This document shows positions 3,421 through 49,889 of a stretch of DNA of 64,000 nt, one piece after another. The notes beneath the pieces were generated by a model, which saw only the letters and a list, made by a program, of their open reading frames with translations, was not told the origin of the DNA and searched no databases. Both the position numbers and the translations under genes were made by a program. The stretch comes from Bigelowiella natans CCMP2755. Its lineage: Eukaryota; Protista; Cercozoa. Position 1 is the stretch's first letter. The number at the start of each line of letters is the position of its first letter. The stretch covers positions 1,645 through 65,644 of the forward strand of contig ADNK01000278.1 of NCBI GenBank assembly GCA_000320545.1. The letters are read 5' to 3'.

Positions 3421-5117
3421 TCACTGGCGTTTTGCCTCGGGTTGCATGTGCTTCAGGGCTGCGAGATCGAGTGGGTTTACTCCCGAGAATCCCTCTGGGA
3501 CGAAAGTGACAGTGCTCTTGTCTGATATCTCCTTGACCTTCTGCACACCCTGCGCTGCAAGTCGCTCCAACAATGTTGCGTGGACTGCCTGAGCCTCAAG
3601 GCCTTTGTACGAATTTGCCACGGTTCTAATAGCAGCAGCTTCTGCCTCTGCAATCGTCTTAATGGCTTTGGCCCTGGCAAATGCAAGCTTCTCAACTCGC
3701 TCAACCTCTGCTTTTATTTTACCCTGCTCTTGCACTAGATGGGCATCCCGCCTACCGCCGGCGATGATCCCCTCCTCTCGAGCCTTTGCGGTAGCGTTCT
3801 TTAGTCGCGTGTCGACCTCAAGTGTTGTGACAGCTTGGTTGTTCATGGCTTGTTGAAATGACGACTCGTAGTGGACACGGAAGCCGATACTGAGCAAAGT
3901 GCCTCCCACGCTGCGAGAGAATTCAGCTAATTCTGCCGTTGACACAGCTTTGAGGTAGTCGGCGAGGGACGCCCCATGGTAATTAGGGATCTCGCTCGGA
4001 TTCTGCAGTTCATTTCGTGAGAGAGCACCAATCGTGTCCTTGAGCTTAAGGGCCACCAGCTCCTCCAAGGCATCTATAAGACTGATGTATTGCGTCTTAC
4101 CGCGGAGGATGCGAGGTTGGTAGAGTTCAACCCGCACGTACACGTCGACGTTCACAGGAGTCGGGTCTTTAGTGTACACTTTGATAGTGTTTAAGTTCTT
4201 GCCGTATTCTTGGACATTGGCATTACCAAGAAATTCAACGCCCTGCTTGTAAATAACGTACTCCCCCGGAGGCTTTTCCCCGATAACGTTGCCGTGGCGG
4301 AAGAGTCCCACGTAACCAGCGGGTACTTTGACAAAAGCCGCGCGCCCTGTCGCAGGTGCTGATGAGTGAATACCACGCACCATGGTCCCGTTTTGGAAGG
4401 CTAGGGCTCCATCCTGCTGCATGGTACTGATCACATTCGTGAGAAGTTTGTAAGGTTCCTTCATCACATAACGACCTGGTCCGAGAGGCATGATCCTGTG
4501 CTTTTCATCTTGAATCAAGGCAGCTTCGTTGGAGCCGACGTTGACGATAGTTATGTTACTGTGTCTGATCACCTTATCAGATAGCGCAACAGTACCGCGC
4601 CACGTTGTTGTCCAGTCGGTTTGGGTGAAGTGTTGCCCCTCTCCTGCAATTTCTGGCTCTCCTTTTCGCGTAATTAGCCCAATGAAGCCAGGAAGAACGC
4701 GATGACCAACTCCTAGGCAACCCCAGGAACGAACAACTCGCACTTTGATGGACTCAAGGGCCTTAAGGTATCCCTCTTCGTCTTTACTCATGACTACATG
4801 AAAGTTTTCTGAGTTCTCTGGGGGGGCAATATCGTCCACGCGCTCCACCTTTACTTCCCCGATGACCATGTCGTTCTTCTGGCTCCCAACGTGCTTTGAC
4901 GACGACTTATGGTCTGGGAAAAACAAGAAATTTCATGTGTGGATTCTAAAACAGAAGATCGTGTCAAGCTACCTTCACTGTAGGCGGCGACAAGACCGGT
5001 CTTCATTCCTTCCTTCGGATTCAGTTTCTTCGCATCTGCGTTCATCGTGGCGAGTGGCGCGAGGGGTGGCGCAGTGGCGGATCCATGCTTTGTCTCTGTC
5101 ATCTCCATGTCGGGCAT
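3421..5117 (-). CDS. SPFH/Band-7 (stomatin/flotillin-like) membrane scaffold protein, 2 exons
   Basis: Exon 1 5117-4973, GT-AG intron 4972-4914, long exon 2 4913-3421. Repeated GPGRY/PPGEY beta units, SPFH core (IKVYTKDPTPVNVDVYVRV...LKDTIGALS) and an EA-rich coiled coil (AKAIKTIAEAEAAAIRTVA). Confidence 0.8.
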
Positions 5118-33509: not shown

Positions 33510-34660
33510 GTTGTGCCTTGACGTAGATGCATACGAGCGTCATAGCTAGGGCCAGCTACCTGTACAATGCAGCTTTAAGTTTAAGCGATGTGGGAGATTC
33601 CCAAAGTAGCGACCAGTGAATGGCCCATGCATTGCAAAAAGGCAGCTGCTTTAACGTTTTCATTAACTGACATACTACGTCTCGATCAGTCATTTAAGCG
33701 TGGCTGATTTCGCACAATTCTGCTTTCGGCTCGCTAATTTCATTGAATTGTTATACTTTTTCCCCTTAGCCTCGTGGTTAATTCTGTTACCAAATGTACG
33801 CTTTATGCGATTTGCAAACACTAATTGACATTCATACGCACCGCATATAATTGTCGCACTGCATGCGGCATGTTGACATAACTAGCTAGCAGTCTGATGT
33901 GTCCTACAATGAGCGCTATACACGACGCGAAAAGGGTCACAACATGTGCTGCAACAGCTAACGTAACAACAGATGAACATAACAGCAATAGCTAGAAGCA
34001 TCCCACTTGGTGAGTCGCATGAAAGCAGTAGATGCATAGAAGCCAGCTAAACAGGGCATGCCTCACACGAATTTCAGTATCACAGGTACACACTTTCACT
34101 TTCTAACTTTGGCAAACGATTGCTGCACTTGTCGATCATATGCGCACGTGGTGTTGTTAATGAACACAGTATCTGCAACTTTGCTCTGTGGCCATGACAA
34201 CGCAATGATGTGGCACAACTTAGAGATGGTCGGGTTCATGTTTTCACGGTGGCTAATTGCACGTTCTCGATCGAAAGCTGAATTCATTGTGTCATCTCTA
34301 GCTTTGCGTCACACAACATAGCCACAAACCCAAAAATAAAGGCCGCATGCTAATACATGCACGTATCAAAATAATGCAAGTAGCTGATAAAATTATTTAA
34401 CTTGTTACAGATGTAAGATGCTCGTTTCAGATAGTATATCATGAGGCGAACACGAATGATTGAAATGATTGATGTAACAGCAGGCAACTCTAGATATATT
34501 CAAACGTCCAAAGCACGTGATGGCTCCGAATATCGCTGCTTCCTAGCAATTTTAGCAATTTAAGGGTATTAAGTTATGGAGTTCAGAGATGGTAGATAAG
34601 GCTCTTCTGGATGGATTAGGTAATGCTGTCTCGAAACCTACTGTACGTCTAACTCTCTTC
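33510..34660. other. Convergent intergenic tract enriched in CTAG/CATG/TGCA
   Basis: Lies between the PPIL2-like (+) and BRCT (-) 3' ends; moderate signature. Confidence 0.45.
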
Positions 34661-34671
34661 AAACGGCAGCT

Positions 34672-34759
34672 CTACGCGATGAGCGTGAAATCGTAATGGG
34701 CCGTCTGGAAACCGACCAATTTCTGTTTTTGCCGCACCAGATTAAAATTATGAGTGTGT

Positions 34760-34795
<36 letters not shown>

Positions 34796-36730
34796 ATGAT
34801 TACCTGCGTCTGGAGGCACTCAACAACCCAGGCGAAGACAACTCTCTCGGTCCTCTTCCTCTTCGAGCTGCTGCTGCTGCTGCTACCCTTTGCAGCATCA
34901 TCGCTTTTCGCAGGAAGGAAGGAGGGAGGGGGGAGGACCGGGTAAAAGGGTGGATGTTCAGCAAACAACGTTTTAAGAAGGACAACTGGGGACATACACG
35001 ATTCAAAATTATCACAGGCAAAGAAGTGAAGAATAAGATAAGAAGAACACTTTTCTGACTACTCATTTTAGTCGTAATTCCGGCAGATTGTATTACGCGT
35101 TGTTGCAAATCACGCAGTAGTAGTCGTCAGGAGATGCCTGCTTCGAGGAGGAGGAGGAGGAGGAGGGCTCCAGGACAACAACCTTTGCGCCAGCCTCTTG
35201 AATGATCTACACGCATGATGATCCATCCATCATATGTCATACGCATGTTTACGGAGGGGGGGGGGGGGGAGACGCTGATAGCAAAGGTCGCGGAGTAGAA
35301 GTATTCTATGCGTCGTTGACGTTGTTGTTGTTGTTGTCGTCGTCGTCGTCGTAGTAGTAGTAGTAGTAGTATCGTATGATGAGCAATATTATTATTATTA
35401 TTGATAATAGTATTGACAGCAGCACCGCTTTCAACTGCCGGGAAGCCTTTGGAGAGACGGAGCTCACGGCGAATGTACGTCCAGAGAGCACACGTTTTCT
35501 CTGATGATGATGATGGTGATGGTGATGGTGATGATAATGATGGTGATGATAATGGTGATGATAATGATGATGATGATGGTGATGATGCAAACGAAGACTA
35601 GAGTGAGGAAGGAGCTTGCCCTCCTCTTGTCTCTCAAGGTTGGCCAACAACAGGTATTTATTTTACCCATCATCCATCCATCCATCGTCGTCATCATTAA
35701 TGATATGAACAACTACCAGCAGCAGTACCTGAGCCAACGGTTGGAGAAAGTTTCTCTCAACCAGGGAGTTCCATCGGCTTGGCAAAGGCACAGCCTTCGT
35801 CTGGTCAAGTGGGACGCCTTTGCACAAGACGACGACATTGATGACGAGGGGGAGGGGGAGGAGAGGAGGGTATGGATATATGCAATACCGATAAATCACG
35901 TTAGGTAGCCCAGAAGGAAAAGCAAGAGCGTGAGAGAAACAGAGGAGAGGAGGGGGGAGGAAGATGATCAAGAGAGAAGGAGGGCTTATTAGCAGCAAAG
36001 TAGTACCGAACGGGATAGTAAAAGGAGAGGGGTCTACGAGCATTCTCTGCCGTCTGCACTCCTATTTATCGAAACAGCACAAAGTGTACATCATTAACGT
36101 CGTTTTTAGACAGAAGATCATGCAAACTGATATATACACTCTCACACACGCACACACATATTATATATATATATATATATATATATGTTTACTGAACATA
36201 ATGATAATACCTGAAGAAACCCAAGCTTGAGCGGTGAGAGCCCACGCGCAAGGGAGAACATATACTTCTTTGTCGTACGAGGTCGGTCAGCGATGACGAG
36301 AACCTAGATAGGACAAGAAGCAGCAGCAGCAGCACAGATACGATATGATTTAATGTGATGTGATTATCAGATGAGACCATGACGATGAAGATGATTGATT
36401 GATTGATTTTATTGATTGATTTATTGATTGGTGGTGATGATAACGGGTTCTTCTTCATCACCGCCACCGTCATCAATGCGCTCGTATTCTATCCGATCGA
36501 TTATGGGAGTGCTAGTAGCACCAGCGGTGGTAGTAAGTATATAATGTGCGTGCGTGTGTATGTGTGTGTGTGTGTGTGTGTATGCGTGAGCAGAATTGAT
36601 GATACTGACGTCGCATCCCTTGATTGATAGTCGATGAGCTTCTTCCACAGATTCTGCTACCTGGAAGAGATGTAGTAGTAGTAGGAGGAGGAGGAGAAGA
36701 AGAAGAAAAAGAAAGCTGTTTGTTTCTTGC

Positions 36731-36790
<60 letters not shown>

Positions 36791-37344
36791 TGAAAGAGAG
36801 AAGAGAGAGAGAGAGTGTCCGTCTTCTCCCTTATCAATCATCACCATCATCACCTTGCCACCCATTGACGTGATGAGGTCGGCAGCCACCTTTGCATCGA
36901 CCTTCATCACAACAAACACACGCCATCATCAACAACATCTCACAGCAATGCATGCATACATACATCACGATAACGATTGCTGATTGACGATGATTGATGA
37001 TCCACAACAACAACAACAACTACTACTACTACTACTACTACCCACTTTGGTTAGAAGGAAGTGAAATCCTTTGAGGACGTCTCGCAACCGTTTGGCCGGC
37101 CTACGAGCTGGAATCACCCCATCATCCTCTGAAGCGTCGTCGTCGTCGTCGTCGTCGTCGTCATCCTCTTCGATTTCACCTTCTCCTCCCCCTTCTTCTT
37201 CTTCTTCTTCTTCTTCTTCTTCCTCTTCCTCTTCCTCTTCCACCATCCCCTCCTTTTCGTCCACTGAGTGGAGAGGAGAGAGAAAACAGCAAGTATACAA
37301 TACACTATAAGAATACACGAAGATGACAGAACAAGCAATGTCGC

Positions 37345-37375
<31 letters not shown>

Positions 37376-37504
37376 TTGTTATCAGCACATAAAACTACTT
37401 ATAGATTCTCATTCCTTATAACAGCGACTAAAAGACAACGCTGCACAGTTGCTGTCGTTTTTATTGTTGTTCTTGTTGTTGTTGCTCTTGCTGCTGTTGT
37501 TGTT

Positions 37505-37567
<63 letters not shown>

Positions 37568-39307
37568 ACCTCCATTGCGTTTTGTGCTGCGGTAAAGACG
37601 ACGTCGTTTGCTTCTACGTGGGTTGCTGCTACGTACACAACGCAGATGGTTAATCATGATGTGTATAGAGGAAATATATATTGAGCACGGGAGGGCGGAG
37701 GCCATGGAAATTAGTGGCAATGACAGTATATAATACCGATATTAAAGAGACACGCACTACCGACTATCATCCTCCTCCTCCATTCGATCTTCCTCTTGTC
37801 CAAGGGTATGACGAGCAGTCCTTGGGCGGCGGCTGCTGCTGGTGCTGCTGTTTCCTTGAGCATTGTGCTGCTGCATGTTTCGAGGGTGCTTTCTCTCTGT
37901 TGTTCTCCTTCTTCTTCCTCTCGGTGATGATGATGATGATGCCGTCGATTGTCCTTTGCCCCCTTTCTTCTTTTTCTTCTCCTTCTTATTCTTCTTGCTG
38001 CTGCTAGGAAAGAAACACAAAATATGCGTAGCGACAGCATGATCATCTGCAATCTTTTTCCTAATGAATGAGGAGCTCGTGGTGGTGATGGTGGTGGTGG
38101 TTGAGTGCGAGGTTGCCTCCCTCGATCAACGTCATCGAAGACACACAGCCGAGCTCTGCTGTGCTGCACAACAACTGCTCTACTTCTGATTTTCTATGGT
38201 GATTAAAGCCTTTCCTATCTACTTACTTACCTCTTGGAATCGTAGCATTTCTCGTCAGCGCCCTCCTCCTCCTCCTCCTCCTCCTCCTCCTCCCCATCGT
38301 CGTCACCCCCCTGGTCCTTGCTTGCCGAATAACCCTGATAGTAGGAAAGGCAGTGGGGGAAGAAAAAGAAGAAGAAGAAGCAGCAGCAGAGAGGAAAAGG
38401 GGGAAAAGGAGGAGAATAGAGAGAACGAGGAAGAGGCGGATATAACGTTGTAGTAGACGACGGAATCACGTAGTAGAGAAGGGTATTGTTCTTGGTCCTT
38501 CTCATTATCAATATTATTTTCATGATTATTATTATTATTATTATTATTATTCTTTTTCCTTCTTTGTGTCTGATAATAATACCTCTGGCCTTCCTCCACG
38601 ATTTCTGTTCCCAAGGTGGTCTCGAACTATCCAACAATAAAGCGTCATCAACCAACCCCCCCCCCCCCCCCCTCTTAGTAGAAGAGGATGAATAGGAAAG
38701 CTAGCACCAAGTATCAAGGTGTTATGATGCAGGACAAAAACTGCCCTTCCCTTCGTCGTCACTGCAAGAAAAATTACTTTTTGATGTAATCGTACATATT
38801 TAACCTAAGTGAGCTGCTGCTGGCTACTACTCCTCCTCCTACCACTACTCCTATTGCTACTACTACTACTACTACCACTACCACTACCACTACTACCATA
38901 AGCACTGCTATGATGATGATGATGATGTTGTAATAATCGACTACCTTTGAAGGGGTTTTTCATGTATTCTTGCAACGTCATCATCCCAGTCTTACGAACC
39001 TGTGTGTATGGCAATGATAATGATGATAATGATGATGATGATGTCTTATGAACCTGTGTGTATGGTAATGATAATGATGATAATGATGATGATGATGATG
39101 ATTATGATGATGATGATGATACTCAAAGGAGGAGTGATTGGTGTTCTTGCTGTTCTTTTCACCCCCCCCCCCCTCTCTTCTTCTTCTTCCAACAATCTTA
39201 GCAGGAGCAGCTGCTGCTCACACACCGTAGCAACCCACATCTCCGATGTATTCGCAAACCTCACGATGTCTGGTGCTGGCTCCTAAGGTGCATAATCATT
39301 AAGCATT

Positions 39308-39388
<81 letters not shown>

Positions 39389-39495
39389 CGCTAAAGGCCT
39401 CCTAATGTCGTTGCTTGTTTGCGTTGAAAAGCAGCATACATCTCCCTCTTCTTCCTCATCCTCCTTGGCTCACTCCCCTATCTCCTCACTATTAA

Positions 39496-39530
<35 letters not shown>

Positions 39531-39702
39531 CACACAAGCAGCCATACATACATGCATGCATGCAGGGCAGAGATAGGTAGTAGTAGTTTTAGTAGTAGTA
39601 GTAGTAGCAGCAGCCTACCTTGGTTCTCCACCCCTTAAATAAATGCACACTTTCCGTTTCGGATGTAATGTCTAGCAGCGCGATCTCAGCATAGCCTCTA
39701 TA

Positions 39703-39743
<41 letters not shown>

Positions 39744-40834
39744 TACGCTTAGTCATGATAATAATAATAAAATTGACAATTCTTCTTCTTCTTCTTCTTT
39801 CTGTTGTTATTGTTGTTGTGGTGGTGGTGGTGGTTGCACGCATGCACCTGCTGGCAGCTTTGATTGCCGCATCACGAGGGTATATGTTGGTGAATGACAG
39901 GTTCTCCGCGTTCAGCAGCCGATATCTCCGCAGCTGAATTGGCAAGAGGAGAGGAAGATTGATGAGGAGGGAGGGGGGGAGGGGGGAGGAAATGTAGAAC
40001 AGCAACAAAAAGGGGGGCATTAAATGCAGCAGCGTCAATGGGAATAGCACGCCTACCGTGTCCCTTCGTTTTCTTCCATTGAGGTTCCTGAATTTGTCTT
40101 TCAGGTCTAACGACCTTCGACTCTCCTTAAATATGCCTGTTGTCAGATGATAACAACAACAACAACAATGATGATAATGATGATGATGATGATGATGATA
40201 ATTATGATGATAAGGCTGCGTTAGGGATAGCAGCTGGTATGTTAGTAATAGTCATACAAATCATGCTTAGATCATTACCCGAAGTTGTTCTACCTACTAC
40301 TAATGCTACTGCTACTACTACTACTACTACTACTACAGCCTTCTCATCATGTTTTCTCCCGATTACTCATTGTCGTCTCACCTTGCCCTTTTTCCAATAT
40401 CCAGTTCCATTTCTGCGCCACGCCGCTCACCATCTGCAAAATATATGATGATAGATATGAGAGCGGGGAGGTATTGAAGCTATACGGGTGAAAATTCTCT
40501 AGAATATGTAATAATGCTAGATGTCGACTTGGAGGAGGACAGTACTGGTCTCAGTACTGGTCTCTGTGCGGCAGAATCGAAAGAACACCGAACTAATTCA
40601 TGCTAGCCTATCATCGTGTTAAACAGAAACAATGCAGTGGTACAACCGCGTCTTTGTGGAGGCGCTGAAGAGCTTCCTCCTACGATTAATAATGCATGAA
40701 AGTTTATGGAATACTGTTGTCAGCGATTATAAGGAGGATGGTGGTGGTGATGATGATGATGACGATGGAGAAAGACTCGAGCAGGTGGATAAAATAGCGC
40801 TTGCGGTTAATTACATGTGACTACTGCAGACCAA

Positions 40835-40873
<39 letters not shown>

Positions 40874-41147
40874 AAATACTACCATCACCACAAGTATTTC
40901 TTTTTTATGGAATTTTATGAGAGATCATTGTTATCATTGTTGTCTATATCATTCCTACAACAACCTCTTCAGTTGTCCACAACACACTTTTCCTTCGTTC
41001 TGTGCTATAAGGCTGCCTCTTCTTCTTCTTCGTCTCCTTGTTTCCGCTTTTCGGAGTGCTAGTTGTAGTACTAGCTATGCTTCTTTTCTTCGCGGACTTC
41101 GTTCGGCTTTTCTTGAGCTGGCGCCATTTGTCCTATGTGAATCGTCG

Positions 41148-41179
<32 letters not shown>

Positions 41180-41773
41180 GTCGTCGTTGTCACAGTGTGC
41201 GACGAATAAGAGTGCATTCCATGTATGATTTACAACATCATAATTCTGACCACCAGCTAACAGGATTCATCCATCATCATCATCATCATCATCATCGCCA
41301 AGCTTGCATCATCACCTTAAGACTTCCTCCAGTTCTTCTTCCTTCAAACGTGTCCAAGTTGTTTTTCAGAATTTGGCTCCATGATCCCTCCCCATACGTT
41401 CTCACGCCATCTCGCAGCACCATAATCTGCAGCAGGTGGAAGGTAGAAGACCCCGGGGGGGGGAAGGGAGGGGGGCAAAAGTGTGAGCCCTTCTTCAGAA
41501 TGCTGTTGAAATTATCGCTACTACCACGTTTATTCGTATTATCATTATGATCAACTTGTTGTCATCAATGACCTCGTCTTCTGTCCAGGGGATTCGTTTT
41601 TTCTTCACCGTCTCGCTTCTACTCATTCGTCGAGCAGCAGCATTTTTCTCTCCCTTAATTTTACGATTATCATCCTTATCATCTTCCTTCTCCTCATCGT
41701 CGATAACTTCATCTTCCATCAAGTCCTCATCCTCGTCGTCATCTTCTTCTGACTCCGTTTCCTCCTCCCCGTC

Positions 41774-41805
<32 letters not shown>

Positions 41806-42930
41806 CATTATTTTTTTTTTTCCGGATATTGGTCACTCTCGTGACCCTTCTTCCTCTCTCCCGTTGTTGTTGTTGCTGCTGCTGCTGCTTCTCCTCTATT
41901 TTCACTCCTTCAAAAGCGTAAGGGTCAACGAAGTTCGCGCCCTTTTCTTCCTTCACAGCTCGACCATCCCTGCTCCCGCCCTAATATTGTGGACAGCAAC
42001 AGCGTACGTACGTAGGGGTAGTAGTAGTTGTAGTAGTAGTAGTAATAGTAATAGTAATAGTAGTAGCGGGTTATTATGAATCCGTTTTCAAGTCATATGA
42101 GCTTTTGCTGCGATTCTTACAGAGGCTAATCGCTTGGATCGACGAGGTCTTCGCGCGCTCGAAGGAGTTTCTTTCGAGGTTCCATTAGTTTTTCCTGCGG
42201 GAGCGATGATAGCTAGCTCACATCGGGTGGAAGGCATTGCGAAACAACATCAAAGTCGACTCGCAGCAGGGCAATCACATCATCCTGAGAAATCATCGTG
42301 CGGAGCGTACGTGCATCGCCTCGAATGAACTTACTTTCAGCACTTTCCTTTCTCTTGCTTCCAGGCGATAGAACTGGTAATAATAATACACACGAGTCGG
42401 AAAAGATTAGAGCTGGAAACGAGAAATATCAGCCATTTGTTAAAATCAACCACTCGACTCCTTCGTTTCCTTTCCCGAGAGGTTTACATTCGAGGAGGAG
42501 GACGATGGGATCTCCGCATTATCCTTGAGAATCTGGACGATGCCATCGACGATCTAAATTCGTGCGTTAGTTACCGAACGGTCTATCAGGGGGCGAGAGT
42601 TTAATCGACGCACCTTCTTTTTGGTTGGGGGAGTTGCGGCCTTTTCTGAAGGGCGCAGAATTTCATGGATAGCAACAAGGTCATCCTTAAGAAATTGCAT
42701 GAGCCGCTTTTTCACTTGCTTTATCTCAGGCACCTGCATTTTGTTCCATAGGGATACGGAAAGATGTGAGGAAAGAGGGGAAATATGGAGAGAGAGAAAG
42801 AGGGGGAGGAGGAAGGTGGAGAAGAGCTTCGTGTCAACCCTACCGTGGACGCTGAAAGAGTCCGTTGAAGATCTTCCACCTCCGTTTGTGGTGTGCGCCT
42901 GGAAGGGGCTTTACTTTTCTTCTTCGGCAT
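34672..42930 (-). CDS. Large chromatin protein: SAP/DEK-like helix pair, 2x telobox-type Myb, MC1-like domain, acidic linker, tandem BRCT (may be two tandem genes split near 38800)
   Basis: Start MPKKKSK at 42930. Myb1 KRIPWTEDE|IMVLRDGVRTYGEGSWSQIL...GSLK|DKWRQL. Myb2 VLWTTEE|EEAL...QKWNWILEKGQ|GIFKESRRSLDLKDKFRNL. MC1-like exons at 39933-38945. BRCT1 LKGFHFLLTK...VIADRPRTTKKYMFSLARGLSPLKLGFLQ|EC. BRCT2 LSGRTFAV...IIQEAGAKVV...VVFAWVVECLQTQ|KLV. Confidence 0.75.
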
Positions 42931-43199: not shown

Positions 43200-45510
43200 A
43201 TTGCGACAACGATCATGTGTTGTCGCCAAACAAAAATGGAACAAACAAGCCATTCAATGAATTGTGCGACACGGGTCTGATTTTCTCGAGCATGAGAGTG
43301 GCTCTGGGCCCGGATTCTCCTGCCAAGTCCTTGCAACGAGTGTTGTTGAGGCTCTGCTGCGTGCAAATGCCTGTCTCCCATGTGGTTCTGGCGCATGTAG
43401 TTTTGATCAACGCTTTCTTCATTGTTCATTGTTCATTGTTCATTGCCTGTTCCTCGTTCTTTGATGCTCCTGACTCTGTCAAGACCAGAGTCTTGCTGGG
43501 TGCTCCTTCGGATCCCAACGTGGATCGTCGGATGGATGTTGCGTTCAGGAAGTTCCTGATCAGAGTTGACACCTTGCGCCTTCGCCACATTGCTGCCAGT
43601 CACATTGTCTCACAATGACATGCAGCTTGCTCACTTTCGTTCAAAAAATCTGCTAGTTCACCAGTCATTGCCCTCACCAAAGTTGGTTCGAGGCACTGCG
43701 TTTCGCACTCTGCAAATGTCTTGCAACATTTTGGAAATGTGGTTCATCATCATTGCCAATGATGACGTGGTCACGTTGCGTGCTTTCTCAGCCATGTCTT
43801 CCCATGACAAGTTCTGCCTTGCTTTGGGGGCCACATCTGGTGTCCCTTCGACTGACAAAGAAATCGACAGTGCTTTCCGTCGAATCATTGTCCTGCTTGA
43901 CAATTTTGCTGCTGTTCGGCATCCAAGATGCCAGTTTTAGTTCCAATCAATTCACATCTCAACGGCACCATCAATCGGCATCCATGCCAATTTCATGGGA
44001 TGCGGCTGATTTTTTGTGTCTCTCACCAACAGGGTGCTGACAAGTCCTTGCAACGAGTGTTGTTGAGGCTCTGCTGCGTGCAAATGCCTGTCTCCCATGT
44101 GGTTCTGGCGCATGTAGTTTTGATCAACGCTTTCTTCATTGTTCATTGTTCATTGTTCATTGTTTCGTGCACTGCAAATGTCTTGTTGCATTTTGGAAAT
44201 GCAGTTCTTCACTGATCATCATTGTTCATTGTTCATTGTTCATTGTTCATTGTTCATTGATTGATTGTGGATGGTGGTTGACATTGTCATCGGCCCAATC
44301 GGTCTTGTGGATGAGGTTTGTGAATGCGCATGGTGAAGTCCAGACGGCGGGCAGCATGGTCAAGAATCTTCAGCAACGTGTGAAACTGGTGGTCACTGAG
44401 TTGAAGCTGATTCAAGCCACGCAGTTGTCTGTGTCCAAGGAGTTGATGGGCAAGGTGAAGAACGCAACGTGGTGAAGCTCAAGGAGATTTTCCACAAATG
44501 CGAAAGTCGTCGTCAACGAGGACACTTTGCGATGTTCGTTGCGATCTTCTTTGCAATGTTTCTTCAAAAGGATGACCGAGATGAAGCCGAGATGCTGAAC
44601 GATGACGCCGTGACACTCTGGCACTGCTGGACTGGCTGGCTGGACAAGGAGTTGCTTGTTTTTGACTCGGCACGCTCCTTTTTCATTTCTTTCACGTGGT
44701 GCACAAATGTGGGCTGCGATGCAGCACACGATGAGGGTCAAAAGTCACGTTTGCTTGGCGGTCGGCATGTGAGTTCCGGAACATCAAAAAAACTGAAGTC
44801 TCATTCGCAATTTTGGCTGCCTGCAGGTTGACCGTTGGGCCAAGCGTGAATGGGTTTGGACTGTCTCAGCGGGACGGTCCCTTGACCACTGCAATTGTCA
44901 CACACAACGACACACCCGGCGTGGTTTTGGGGGTGTCAGAAACGATGGAAGCGGGCCTGAAAAGACTGCGTTGCTGTTGGGGACAGCTTGGCGAGTTTTG
45001 CAGCTGCGCTCGTGTTTTTCCACCAAAGACCAAGCAATCGCGTGATCAACACGCGTGCAGCGCGCGTCCCCTCATGCATGGTCTGCACAGCATGCTAGTT
45101 CCTGTCATTGTTGTCATCGCTGTTGCCAGACAAGCTAGCAAGCGCAACCAGTTTGCGGGCGTCGTGTTGTGCGTTGTGTGTGCAAGTTTCAACAACGAAC
45201 GTGCCACCGACCACGTGTCCAAGCGAGTGCACACCAGGCACACAGGTGACGATTTCGACGCACTGCTAGACTGCTGTCGTGTGCGTTGCGCAACTGCGTG
45301 CAATTCCGTGCACAATTGCAGCCCACGCTGCAGCTGGAGTGCATGTCAGCACACTGTGTGAACTTGTTTGTTGGTGCACGTGTGGACGCGAAAAGCACAG
45401 GTGTGCCTGTTTGATGCATGTGAACGACGCAACTGCATGTGTGTGCCATGCGCGCGTGCACCCTTGCAGACTTCCATGCCGTGGACCTGCAAGGCTAGAA
45501 TCGAAGAGGT
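43200..45510. mobile_element. Degenerate TpA-erased repeat, probably a transposon or pseudogene relic (family unassigned)
   Basis: Broken, frameshifted ORFs with essentially no Tyr and excess Cys/His; internal 122-bp exact direct repeat; (TTCATTG)n arrays; no intron-exon gene structure. Confidence 0.5.
43324..44162 (+). repeat. 122-bp exact direct repeat (43324-43445 = 44041-44162), each copy ending in (TTCATTG)4
   Basis: Direct sequence comparison; a further TTCATTG array lies at ~44219-44259. Confidence 0.9.
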
Positions 45511-45772: not shown

Positions 45773-47250
45773 TCACTCCATCACCGCCGGGTTCGGGTTT
45801 GAAGCCTCTCGCAACGTGTTCTCTTCAACAGCATTTTGAATGATCTCAGAAACCTCTTTTGCCATTCCTTTTTTGAGGACCAATGTTGTCCTGATCAAAC
45901 ACAAGAGACACGATTATGTAACATACCAAGCCGTCAGCATCGCGAAAGATGCCTTCAGCCCATGAAAAAATAGAAAAATGAAATTGTGAATAGTTACATT
46001 TCTCCCCTGTTCGTTGAGATCATCACTTTAGAGGCAGCAACATCACAGCAAGTGCATGCTCCGAGCTAAGTAGAACACAAGTTTGAAATCTGAAGTTAGA
46101 TCTTCGGTGAGAAGGATCGCACACAAGGAAATAGATTTAGAGCTAGCCCTCACTCTATAGAAAAAAATAAACTTGAACAGACGAAATCAAGATGAAGGAC
46201 TCACCACTTCCTCCGAATAATCAACATCGTTGACCGTGGTTAAGTCAAAGTTGTTTGCTTGGATGGTCTTATCGGTCAAGCATGGAAAATAACCGTCTTC
46301 GTGGTAGGTTTTCATCAAAGCCTAATAACATGAAACACGACTCATTGCATCTTTGTGTGTCTAACACGATAAAAACCGAGGTTATTGTTTTGTTCAGGTT
46401 AGAATAATCATTCGAATTTCTAATTTGGGTCGAACATACCGTAAACTTTGTGTTGGTCACTTTATATTTATCTGGTACACCTGTCCAGCAGCAATATGGG
46501 AAACTGATAAAAATAATTCGTTAAACAATGACGTTTTTATATTAGTAGGTGAGTATCAGTCTTTCTTTTCATCATTATAATCACTATCTATATTCACTAA
46601 TGTTAAAAAAAATAATACGGGTATCAACAGGTAGAGACGAACCCGAAAGGCAGCATGTCGCCACAAGGTCCCTCCCGGAATTCTTCGCCTTCCCAAATGA
46701 CTTTGTTACGCCACACTCTTCTGGCCAACACTTTATTTTTGTTGTTGATCTGCGGGGCGAAAGAAAAATTGGAGAACAAATCAAGTGAGATGATGGGATA
46801 CAAGCGCATGATAGCCGTCGTCACAGAATCGTCACGTTGTCATCACCATTACCTTGAGAAACTTAAGCCTATCCCCCACAACCTTTACTCCCATCTCTTT
46901 CATCTCTGCCTTGCCGATGGAAGGTAGAAGAGAGCCATCAATCTTATGAGCCATGAAGATCTCAGAAATATCTTTGAAGCCAAGACTACTGATGTATTCT
47001 CCGACTTCCTTAACATCCCTACACATCGCACAAAACACATCATCCATCAAGTCCTACATTGTACATGAGACATTACACGATTAGGTCCAAAGGTGTGAGG
47101 AAGGAATGGAGAAAAGATCTGTATCATCAAAGTTGAAGCATGTTACATCACGTAGAAGCACATTCATGCACAGACTTACCATGTCTCCATCTTTAGGAAC
47201 TTTTCCATCGCCTTCTGGTCGTGCTGAACGGTAGGCTTATCTTGCGGCAT
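45773..47250 (-). CDS. SAM-domain protein, left palindrome copy
   Basis: Reverse complement of the 48412-49889 gene; W|DVKEVGEYISSLGFKDISEIFMAHKIDGSLLPSIGKAEMKEMGVKVVGDRLKFLK is a typical SAM domain. Confidence 0.85.
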
Positions 47251-48411: not shown

Positions 48412-49889
48412 ATGCCGCAAGATAAGCCTACCGTTCAGCACGACCAGAAGGCGATGGAAAAGTTCCTAAAGATGGAGACATGGTAAGTCTGTGCATGAAT
48501 GTGCTTCTACGTGATGTAACATGCTTCAACTTTGATGATACAGATCTTTTCTCCATTCCTTCCTCACACCTTTGGACCTAATCGTGTAATGTCTCATGTA
48601 CAATGTAGGACTTGATGGATGATGTGTTTTGTGCGATGTGTAGGGATGTTAAGGAAGTCGGAGAATACATCAGTAGTCTTGGCTTCAAAGATATTTCTGA
48701 GATCTTCATGGCTCATAAGATTGATGGCTCTCTTCTACCTTCCATCGGCAAGGCAGAGATGAAAGAGATGGGAGTAAAGGTTGTGGGGGATAGGCTTAAG
48801 TTTCTCAAGGTAATGGTGATGACAACGTGACGATTCTGTGACGACGGCTATCATGCGCTTGTATCCCATCATCTCACTTGATTTGTTCTCTAATTTTTCT
48901 TTCGCCCCGCAGATCAACAACAAAAATAAAGTGTTGGCCAGAAGAGTGTGGCGTAACAAAGTCATTTGGGAAGGCGAAGAATTCCGGGAGGGACCTTGTG
49001 GCGACATGCTGCCTTTCGGGTTCGTCTCTACCTGTTGATACCCGTATTATTTTTTTTAACATTAGTGAATATAGATAGTGATTATAATGATGAAAAGAAA
49101 GACTGATACTCACCTACTAATATAAAAACGTCATTGTTTAACGAATTATTTTTATCAGTTTCCCATATTGCTGCTGGACAGGTGTACCAGATAAATATAA
49201 AGTGACCAACACAAAGTTTACGGTATGTTCGACCCAAATTAGAAATTCGAATGATTATTCTAACCTGAACAAAACAATAACCTCGGTTTTTATCGTGTTA
49301 GACACACAAAGATGCAATGAGTCGTGTTTCATGTTATTAGGCTTTGATGAAAACCTACCACGAAGACGGTTATTTTCCATGCTTGACCGATAAGACCATC
49401 CAAGCAAACAACTTTGACTTAACCACGGTCAACGATGTTGATTATTCGGAGGAAGTGGTGAGTCCTTCATCTTGATTTCGTCTGTTCAAGTTTATTTTTT
49501 TCTATAGAGTGAGGGCTAGCTCTAAATCTATTTCCTTGTGTGCGATCCTTCTCACCGAAGATCTAACTTCAGATTTCAAACTTGTGTTCTACTTAGCTCG
49601 GAGCATGCACTTGCTGTGATGTTGCTGCCTCTAAAGTGATGATCTCAACGAACAGGGGAGAAATGTAACTATTCACAATTTCATTTTTCTATTTTTTCAT
49701 GGGCTGAAGGCATCTTTCGCGATGCTGACGGCTTGGTATGTTACATAATCGTGTCTCTTGTGTTTGATCAGGACAACATTGGTCCTCAAAAAAGGAATGG
49801 CAAAAGAGGTTTCTGAGATCATTCAAAATGCTGTTGAAGAGAACACGTTGCGAGAGGCTTCAAACCCGAACCCGGCGGTGATGGAGTGA
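48412..49889 (+). CDS. SAM-domain protein with a C-terminal beta-rich (possibly PH-like) domain, right palindrome copy, ~8 exons
   Basis: MPQDKPTVQHDQKAMEKFLKMETW|SAM domain|...VWRNKVIWEGEEFREG...PDKYKVTNTKF...ANNFDLTTVNDVDY...TTLVLKKGMAKEVSEIIQNAVEEN...AVME*. Confidence 0.85.

What the first reader, a model, noticed from the sequence alone, without database searches (positions are those of the whole stretch)
38945..41620. Archaeal/viral MC1-type DNA-bending domain fused to two telobox Myb domains in a spliced eukaryotic gene
Seen: four exons (39933-39848, 39697-39619, 39282-39226, ~38999-38945) splice in frame to RRYRLLNAENLSFTNIYPRDAAIKAASRGYAEIALLDITSETESVHLFKGWRTKEPAPDIVRFANTSEMWVATVRKTGMMTL. 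Known: the non-histone chromosomal protein MC1 of methanogens and haloarchaea (also in some giant viruses) follows the pattern RxFxL..FTGxxPRQAALKAAxRG..IxL.....VHxFxGW....AP......W...VxKxG. The domain directly follows two Myb domains ending LKDKWRQL and LKDKFRNL, the telobox signature of TRF/Tbf1/Teb1-Tay1 telomere-repeat binders. Inference: a domesticated MC1 domain that bends or compacts telomere-repeat DNA. The domain is invisible in the ORF track because it is split by introns.
Basis: partly seen in the sequence, partly recalled or inferred. Interest (0 to 1): 0.85.

Follow-up and report, generated by a model that had tools for sequence, protein, structure and literature searches.

The report
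Archaeal MC1 domain in telomere-type protein
A spliced, transcribed gene of an unnamed eukaryote joins two telomere-type Myb domains to a homologue of the archaeal DNA-bending protein MC1 and a probable BRCT pair, making a protein that likely reads telomere-like repeats, with the MC1 part predicted to grip DNA but bend it less than in archaea.

Summary
Contigs from 5 of 5 contig runs laid (five studies) join the second Myb exon to the first MC1 exon. Three contig lengths fit the four MC1 exons to the base. A profile of 41 archaeal-type MC1s matches residues 423-509 over 93 of 98 positions (34.7 bits, E 9e-13; best of 2000 shuffles 7.8). Both Mybs score as teloboxes. The domain is archaeal-type, not mimivirus-type (41.7 vs 6.3 bits), but the donor is unresolved (AU p 0.29). 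It keeps Arg25, His56 and Lys86 but lacks the arm residues Pro72, Trp74 and Met75, whose mutation reduces bending in Methanosarcina MC1. So "bends or compacts telomere DNA" is unproven and probably overstated. Ten paper searches found no nuclear eukaryotic MC1. This scan noted Myb+MC1 fusions before on other DNA (two other eukaryote genomes, one microsporidian; not checked here), which hints at a wider family. None of 120 metagenomic telobox loci carried MC1. Fold searches were inconclusive.

The parts
34672..42930 (-). Whole coding region: 29 exons, 28 GT-AG introns (60-336 nt, median 193), 962 aa
   Evidence: Open frame from ATG 42930 to stop 34674-34672; junctions and record offsets match RNA-derived contigs. 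The junction 37570/37263 and the small exons 36901-36854 and 36660-36610 are modelled, not directly displayed.
42521..42733 (-). N-terminal helical segment (aa 30-80); SAP/DEK-like by eye only (recalled)
   Evidence: No Pfam hit for the exon, no relevant PDB hit; unconfirmed
41112..41611 (-). Telobox Myb domain 1 (aa 265-321; exons ending 41573, 41426-41316, starting 41132)
   Evidence: 57.7 bits, E 4e-20 on a profile of 41 telobox domains; 44.6 bits with the telobox motif masked, shuffles max 11.6. 12 of 13 PDB hits of its middle exon are TRF1/TRF2.
40078..41003 (-). Telobox Myb domain 2 (aa 358-418; includes the 33-nt exon 40679-40647); Phe replaces the third Trp
   Evidence: 34.7 bits, E 6.5e-13; 15.9 with motif masked, shuffles max 9.3; junctions
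39848..39933 (-). MC1-like domain exon 1 (strands 1-2 and helix; Arg445 = MC1 Arg25 at 39876-39874)
   Evidence: laid by contigs
39619..39697 (-). MC1-like domain exon 2 (strands 3-4; His472 = His56, Trp477 = Trp61)
   Evidence: presence in transcript by contig-length fit
39226..39282 (-). MC1-like domain exon 3 (arm; Pro72/Trp74/Met75 replaced by Arg488/Ala490/Asn491)
   Evidence: depth and joint at 39224
38945..38999 (-). MC1-like domain exon 4 (end of strand 5; Lys502 = Lys86)
   Evidence: presence by contig-length fit
37091..38626 (-). Charged low-complexity linker (aa about 518-724; aa 510-725 hold 47 K+R and 66 D+E)
36035..37090 (-). Probable BRCT repeat 1 (aa about 725-812)
   Evidence: Exon 36303-36211: all 4 PDB hits are MDC1 BRCT but E 0.37; 4.8 bits on a 6-sequence bacterial BRCT profile, reached by 5 of 1000 shuffles
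34804..35731 (-). Probable BRCT repeat 2 (aa about 851-946)
   Evidence: 7.1 bits on the same profile, reached by 7 of 1000 shuffles; no PDB hit for its last exons

Best explanation
The gene is transcribed and spliced into a frame that joins two telobox-type Myb domains, an archaeal-type MC1 homologue and a probable BRCT pair; the protein likely reads TTAGGG-type repeats with its Mybs, is predicted to use the MC1 domain as an extra, weakly bending DNA grip, and would likely recruit phosphorylated chromatin or repair partners through the BRCTs. Shown: the exon chain, the Myb-MC1 junction in transcripts, MC1 homology over the whole domain, and which DNA-contact residues are kept or lost. Inferred: the two Mybs supply in one chain the pair of repeat readers that TRF dimers or Teb1/Tay1 use. 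The MC1 domain sits only about 8 residues after the recognition helix of Myb2, so it would touch the DNA flanking the repeat through its helix Arg (Arg25 equivalent), His56 and strand-5 Lys86. Without the intercalating arm Trp it would stabilise or lightly bend DNA rather than force the archaeal V-turn. The design parallels plant TRB proteins (Myb plus a linker-histone-like domain), with MC1 in the auxiliary slot. Whether the sites are chromosome ends or internal telo-boxes is open.
For: Transcript joints and contig lengths. MC1 profile 34.7 bits, E 8.6e-13, positions 4-96 of 98. Kept contact residues: Arg4, Arg25, Lys30, His56, Lys86, plus Gly at 88 (the state in 34 of 41 archaeal-type rows) and Arg for Lys85. 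Arg25 is the largest affinity determinant in Methanosarcina MC1 (>100-fold; PMC3928310, passages). Telobox scores and TRF1/TRF2 as nearest structures. Myb plus histone-like domain in plant TRBs (PMC9498494, passages). MDC1 as the only PDB hit of the BRCT1 exon. Same GC3 in the MC1 exons (0.57) as in the whole gene (0.55), three introns inside the domain, and ordinary eukaryotic neighbours (Ras, kinesin, Sel1, WW, SAM), all arguing for long residence.
Against: No binding data and no telomere sequence for this organism; the window has no tandem TTAGGG. Lost contact residues: Lys22, Gln23, Gln26 (to Asp), Lys53/Lys54 (to Glu/Ser), Arg71, Pro72, Trp74, Met75, Lys81, Ile89 (to Met). Net charge is only +3 (12 K+R, 9 D+E), so DNA contact may be marginal. 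The BRCT call is weak. In the ungapped alignment to MDC1 (numbering partly recalled) the Lys1936 position is Lys but the Arg1933 position is Thr. Telobox proteins such as Teb1 act mainly at promoters, not telomeres (PMC4839565, passages). The MC1-to-BRCT link rests on overlapping contigs broken at repeats, not on one contig.
Confidence: 0.5

Rival explanations
1. The MC1 domain is a full-strength bender: a remodelled arm (Phe489, Trp496) and the kept helix Arg kink the DNA next to the repeats and help to loop or compact telomeric chromatin.
For: Arg25 kept. Giant-virus MC1s lack the arm Pro-x-Trp (0 of 136 have it in their last 60 residues), yet mimivirus gp275 is reported to bind and bend DNA (10.1101/2024.02.22.580433, passages). 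Myb tethering could offset low affinity.
Against: In Methanosarcina MC1, Pro72Ala, Trp74Phe and Ile89Ala each reduce bending, and Trp74Ala or Met75Ala strongly reduce it (PMC3928310). All these positions are changed here. gp275 is oligomeric, and the viral domains fetched are visibly lysine-rich, unlike this one.
Confidence: 0.2
2. The MC1 fold has been kept as a protein-binding or dimerisation module and no longer touches DNA; the Mybs alone read DNA.
For: 11 of 18 mapped contact positions are lost and the loop is acidic. Earlier scan notes describe MC1-like tails on archaeal helicases that lost the bending residues (e1-7732617; unchecked lead, not support).
Against: The most conserved DNA contacts (Arg25, His56, Lys86, Arg4, Lys30) are all kept despite only 17-39% overall identity to the 41 archaeal-type rows, which suggests selection on the DNA face.
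Confidence: 0.15
3. The protein is mainly a DNA-damage mediator or transcription regulator whose Mybs read a non-telomeric motif, with MC1 recognising bent or branched DNA at lesions.
For: Probable MDC1-like BRCT pair. Archaeal MC1 prefers bent DNA and four-way junctions and protects against radiolysis (PMC6776556, passages). Myb2 is divergent (34.7 vs 57.7 bits).
Against: Both recognition helices keep the telobox motif, and Myb1's nearest structures are TRF1/TRF2. Recognition of bent DNA depends on Trp74/Met75, which are lost.
Confidence: 0.12
4. The MC1 resemblance or the fusion is an artefact of chance similarity or wrong splicing.
For: Pfam score just under the cut-off on the intron-containing stretch. 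Fold searches did not return 1T23. Two of four exons were not directly laid.
Against: E 8.6e-13 over 93 of 98 profile positions; 19.4 bits remain with 14 motif residues masked. The junction is seen in five studies and contig lengths fit exactly in three. A true archaeal MC1 control finds 1T23 only weakly (E 4.5e-4; Z 3.1, rank 34).
Confidence: 0.03

Closest known systems
Archaeal chromosomal protein MC1 (Methanosarcina thermophila; Pfam PF05854; PDB 1T23, 2KHL, 2NBJ)
   Same: Sequence homology over the whole domain, short helix with Arg25, His56, Trp61, Lys86; best pairwise matches are archaeal (up to 39-41% identity)
   Different: Here an internal domain of a 962-aa spliced eukaryotic protein; arm Pro72/Trp74/Met75 and the Arg-Glu-Arg-Gly loop are lost; much less basic
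Giant-virus MC1-like proteins (mimivirus gp275/R252, chlorovirus homologues)
   Same: MC1 domain within a longer protein with disordered charged flanks; arm Trp absent
   Different: Profile scores 6.3 (mimivirus-type, 130 rows) and 12.7 (chlorovirus-like by my label, 6 rows) against 41.7 archaeal; no Myb or BRCT fusion reported; this is an intron-rich host gene
Fungal Teb1/Tay1 double-Myb telobox proteins
   Same: Two telobox-type Myb domains in one chain, expected to read two repeats
   Different: No MC1 or BRCT described for them in the passages read; orthology not tested
Plant TRB proteins (Myb plus histone-like domain)
   Same: Telobox Myb coupled to a small architectural DNA-binding domain
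   Different: The auxiliary domain is MC1, not histone-like; two Mybs; probable C-terminal BRCT pair
TRF1/TRF2 and Rap1; MDC1-type tandem-BRCT mediators
   Same: TRF-type Myb; BRCT and Myb in one chain as in Rap1; C-terminal BRCT pair weakly like MDC1
   Different: No recognisable TRFH dimerisation region (by inspection); Rap1 has one N-terminal BRCT, here a probable C-terminal pair; MDC1 has no Myb or MC1 (recalled)

Membership tests
MC1 (PF05854), euryarchaeal type | Profile match over the whole ~90-aa domain | tested here: met
   Own profile of 41 archaeal-type MC1s: 34.7 bits, E 8.6e-13, positions 4-96/98. Pfam on the intron-containing surrogate: 21.7 bits vs cut-off 23; the spliced domain itself was not scanned against Pfam.
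MC1 (PF05854), euryarchaeal type | Five-strand, one-helix fold | tested here: inconclusive
   The surrogate (exons 1-2 with intron, MC1-guided alignment) gives strand-strand-helix-strand-strand at pLDDT 77-90 in exon parts. Fold searches do not list 1T23, but a true MC1 control barely does.
MC1 (PF05854), euryarchaeal type | Helix Arg25 and strand-5 Lys86 that neutralise phosphates | tested here: met
   Arg445 and Lys502; roles from PMC6776556 and PMC3928310
MC1 (PF05854), euryarchaeal type | Arm Pro72/Trp74/Met75 inserted in the minor groove | tested here: not met
   Arg488/Ala490/Asn491, with Phe489 adjacent; Trp74 is present in 41 of 41 comparison rows. Filed therefore as an MC1-like homologue, not as a canonical euryarchaeal MC1.
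MC1 (PF05854), euryarchaeal type | Small, basic, stand-alone monomer | tested here: not met
   Internal domain of a 962-aa protein, 12 K+R vs 9 D+E
MC1 (PF05854), euryarchaeal type | Bends DNA sharply | not testable with these tools
   Needs biochemistry
Telobox Myb (TRF/TRB/Teb1 type) | Myb repeat ending in the LKDKWR-type recognition helix | tested here: met
   Both domains match a 41-sequence telobox profile, also with the motif masked; motif named in PMC10887745
Telobox Myb (TRF/TRB/Teb1 type) | Binds duplex telomeric repeats | not testable with these tools
   No genome held; telomere sequence unknown
TRF1/TRF2 orthologues | TRFH dimerisation domain before the Myb | not tested
   No TRFH profile was run on the spliced protein; the region before Myb1 is mostly low-complexity
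Tandem BRCT (MDC1/PTIP type) | Two BRCT repeats with a phospho-serine pocket | tested here: inconclusive
   MDC1 hits at E 0.37; the two repeats are the only places a bacterial BRCT profile aligns, each matched by under 1% of shuffles; no Pfam hit per exon

The most novel reading that the evidence does not exclude
Telobox-Myb plus MC1 is an old, unrecognised eukaryotic protein family, spread over distant lineages (this organism, microsporidia and others noted by the scan). In it an archaeal nucleoid protein was kept or captured as the architectural partner of telomere-repeat readers, the counterpart of the linker-histone domain in plant TRBs. MC1 would then be a second archaeal chromatin fold, beside histones, at work in eukaryotic nuclear chromatin, here coupled to BRCT damage signalling.
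Probability: 0.4. Interest if true: 0.88.

Novelty: new variant of a known kind. Interest (0 to 1): 0.72.

Why it matters
In the papers found, MC1 is reported from archaea, giant viruses and some bacteria. The mimivirus study proposed an archaea-to-alga-to-virus route but found no algal MC1. A transcribed nuclear gene with an archaeal-type MC1 domain and three introns inside it shows that eukaryotes can domesticate this fold. It adds a new architecture (Myb-Myb-MC1-BRCT-BRCT) to telomere-type DNA readers outside animals, fungi and plants, where telomere proteins are poorly known. It makes two questions testable: whether MC1 without its arm Trp still shapes DNA when tethered by Mybs, and whether eukaryotic Myb-MC1 proteins share one origin.

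Tried and rejected
No whole genome was held, so paralogues and telomere repeats could not be checked. Protein searches with the intron-containing stretch found nothing at near or longer lengths, and one low-complexity hit on the intron part among the 50% representatives. That was a poor query, so it is no evidence of absence. A search of longer proteins with the archaeal alignment gave 32 hits among 8000 candidates scored; none has a telobox Myb. The word filter is insensitive to diverged eukaryotic forms. The search for related loci in viral contigs: 74 pattern matches, none confirmed. Atlas: no usable hit for the window stretch; three sub-0.9 giant-virus clusters for an archaeal query with PF05854 left out. 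120 metagenomic telobox loci (9 of 64 parts scanned, about 850 expected in all; 40 with short flanks) show no MC1. Fold searches of the truncated surrogate did not list MC1 and are uninformative given the weak control; alignment A2 also misplaced strand 3 onto the intron. No RNA holder was on record; the contigs used skip GT-AG introns and are read as RNA-derived for that reason. The joint 39224/38628 could be misread as skipping of exon 4; this is rejected because contig lengths need its 55 nt. The upstream duplicate acceptor at 39053 is rejected for the same reason. Alternative reading frames for exons 38334-37570 are open but out of phase with the confirmed chain. Single exons gave no Pfam hits. 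A SET-like motif seen near 34450 lies after the stop codon and was dropped. The AU test does not reject grouping with mimivirus-type MC1 (p 0.285); its repeat without the motif columns was not obtained.
Full report
Observation. Exons 1 and 2 happen to share a frame with the intron between them, so that stretch could be scanned directly. Pfam MC1 (PF05854) was its only hit, E 2.5e-4, 21.7 bits against a cut-off of 23. In PDB sequences it hit 1T23 MC1 weakly (E 1.6) and one unrelated low-complexity match.

Gene model and transcripts. Six runs of 24 listed were laid. The five kept as contigs are labelled 'RNA, a guess'; they skip GT-AG introns. All five (studies P1, P2, P3, P5, P6) show the joint 40057/39933 that ties Myb2 to the MC1 domain. 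The raw-read run X21 was too shallow there, though it shows three other joints of the gene. Two MC1 exons fall in repeat-masked bins, and the tool reports a joint 39224/38628 with 'between: not known'. Counting letters settles this: the chain 33+52+80+86+79+57+55+44 nt predicts the ends of contigs X1 record 3 (1024 nt), X2 record 9 (1061 nt) and X3 record 14 (979 nt) at 38307, 38269 and 38599, exactly where their loose ends or joint sides put them. The frame stays open through 29 exons to a stop at 34674-34672, 962 aa, and all 28 introns are GT-AG. A further contig fits the last exons at 9 of 9 checked offsets, one of which served as calibration. Contigs break at simple repeats, so MC1 and the C-terminal part are linked by overlap and frame, not by one contig; the junction 37570/37263 is inferred. 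Minor splice variants exist (donor 37737 in X17, acceptor 38003 in X1 and X2).

MC1 homology. I fetched archaeal and viral MC1 loci by a degenerate motif (the genome scan covered 5 of 64 parts). Of 138 loci, 98 gave candidate frames; 89 were kept and 9 dropped as unrelated, leaving 41 non-redundant rows, 36 cellular and 5 from viral contigs. Their profile matches residues 423-509 over positions 4-96 of 98 (34.7 bits, E 8.6e-13). The isolated domain scores 40.0 against at most 7.8 for 2000 shuffles, and 16.1 with the fetch motif masked. The score rises as exons are added (17.7, 30.6, 35.2, 40.0). No second copy lies in the window. Two looser patterns gave 161 viral MC1 domains in 143 of 219 viral loci. 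The domain scores 41.7 bits on the archaeal profile, 6.3 on 130 mimivirus-type rows and 12.7 on 6 rows I label chlorovirus-like. With 14 motif residues masked it scores 19.4 (36 cellular rows only), -1.9 and 1.2. A tree of 65 rows (22 of 52 non-redundant mimivirus-type rows drawn at random; 94 columns) puts it on the archaeal side of a 98/99 branch, on a long branch near an uncultured Halobacteria sequence. It stays nearest to that sequence without the motif columns and without the other long row. The AU test does not reject grouping with the mimivirus-type rows (p 0.285), and bacterial MC1s were not sampled, so no donor is named.

Function of the domain. I mapped Methanosarcina numbering through L031 and checked it against the residues named in PMC6776556 and PMC3928310 (passages). 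Kept: Arg4, Arg25, Lys30, His56, Lys86, with Arg at 85 and Gly at 88. Lost: Lys22, Gln23, Gln26, Lys53, Lys54, Arg71, Pro72, Trp74, Met75, Lys81 and Ile89. In the archaeal protein Arg25 mutants lose over 100-fold affinity, and Pro72, Trp74, Met75 and Ile89 mutants bend less. The domain therefore keeps the main phosphate contacts but not the arm that intercalates, which predicts DNA contact with reduced bending. Against this inference, none of 136 giant-virus domains has the arm Pro-x-Trp, yet gp275 is reported to bend DNA (10.1101/2024.02.22.580433, passages and section 5). A model of the truncated, intron-containing surrogate had the expected order of elements but found no MC1 in fold searches. 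A true archaeal MC1 model found 1T23 only at E 4.5e-4 and Z 3.1, so this test is inconclusive.

Other domains. A profile of 41 telobox domains (86 usable of 118 motif matches in 120 metagenomic loci, de-duplicated) scores Myb1 57.7 and Myb2 34.7 bits, above shuffles even with the motif masked. Myb1's middle exon finds TRF1/TRF2 in 12 of 13 PDB hits; Myb2's last exon finds only an unrelated hit. About 8 residues separate Myb2 from MC1. The C-terminus looks like a tandem BRCT. One exon hits only MDC1 (E 0.37), and a 6-sequence bacterial profile aligns only to the two repeats, each matched by 5-7 of 1000 shuffles. Its last exons hit nothing. I call it probable. The SAP/DEK-like label for residues 30-80 is recalled and unconfirmed.

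Context. The neighbours are ordinary eukaryotic genes (Ras, WW, Sel1/ankyrin, kinesin, SAM), with no viral hallmark among the 110 frames scanned in Pfam. GC3 of the MC1 exons equals that of the gene. The lineage was not determined. From recall, the short, dense, microsatellite-rich introns resemble chlorarachniophyte-type protist genomes; this is an untested guess.

Mechanism. Most likely (0.5), the two Mybs read TTAGGG-type repeats, MC1 adds a flanking, weakly bending grip, and the BRCT pair docks phosphorylated partners. This parallels plant TRBs, which pair a Myb with a histone-like domain (PMC9498494, passages), and Teb1, a double-Myb telobox protein that works at promoters (PMC4839565, passages). 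TRF and Rap1 architectures are from PMC7617103 (passages), and MDC1 pocket residues from PMC11014961 (passages). Rivals: a full bender (0.2), a protein-binding relic (0.15), a non-telomeric damage factor (0.12), an artefact (0.03).

Novelty. Ten searches showed no paper on MC1 in a eukaryotic nuclear protein. The searches joining MC1 with Myb and telomere terms returned 0 papers. The library lacks most subscription papers, supplements were not read, and database annotations may already list such domains. Passages read place MC1 in archaea, some bacteria and giant viruses (PMC5499826, PMC8715426, PMC7613761), and the mimivirus preprint found no algal hit. Earlier notes of this scan describe telobox Myb plus MC1 in two other eukaryotic genomes, one microsporidian, and a third note on Encephalitozoon Myb paralogues holds both search words. 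I could not fetch these sequences, so they are leads, not support. My own searches found no eukaryotic relative. Verdict: a real, expressed, apparently unpublished fusion; a new variant of telobox chromatin proteins carrying an MC1-like domain; function inferred, not shown. Interest 0.72.

Noticed in passing
P0006-P0017, P0019-P0028, P0030, P0031: 24 of 32 longer MC1 proteins carry an intact N-terminal, haloarchaeal-looking MC1 fused to an IS66 transposase (PF03050): a DNA-bending domain built into a transposase
   Followed up: partly
P0002, P0003, P0005: About 365-aa proteins with a Methanothrix-like MC1 at the C-terminus after an unannotated N-terminal region of about 275 aa
   Followed up: no
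window 38989-39097: 54-nt tandem duplication of the 3' splice site before MC1 exon 4; contig lengths fit use of the downstream acceptor (38999) only
   Followed up: yes
window 37737/37761 and 38000/38003: Alternative donor (X17) and tandem acceptor (X1, X2) in the charged linker
   Followed up: no
window 3421-4932 (-): 503-aa open frame without introns, weakly SPFH/Band 7-like (E 1.7e-4), unusual in this intron-dense genome
   Followed up: no
window 46835-47053 (-) and 48609-48827 (+): Two SAM-domain frames in opposite orientation with identical Pfam scores: likely a recent inverted duplication
   Followed up: no
window 43206-43400: High depth with several sequence differences and first mates on the opposite strand just upstream of the gene: likely a repeated element or a divergent transcript
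   Followed up: no
L193, L195, L176, L208, L303, L261: Several giant-virus loci hold two or more divergent MC1-like genes side by side
   Followed up: no
whole window: The archaeal MC1 SELEX consensus contains a CA-repeat core (PMC6776556), and (CA)n tracts are abundant in this genome's introns; any link is speculation
   Followed up: no
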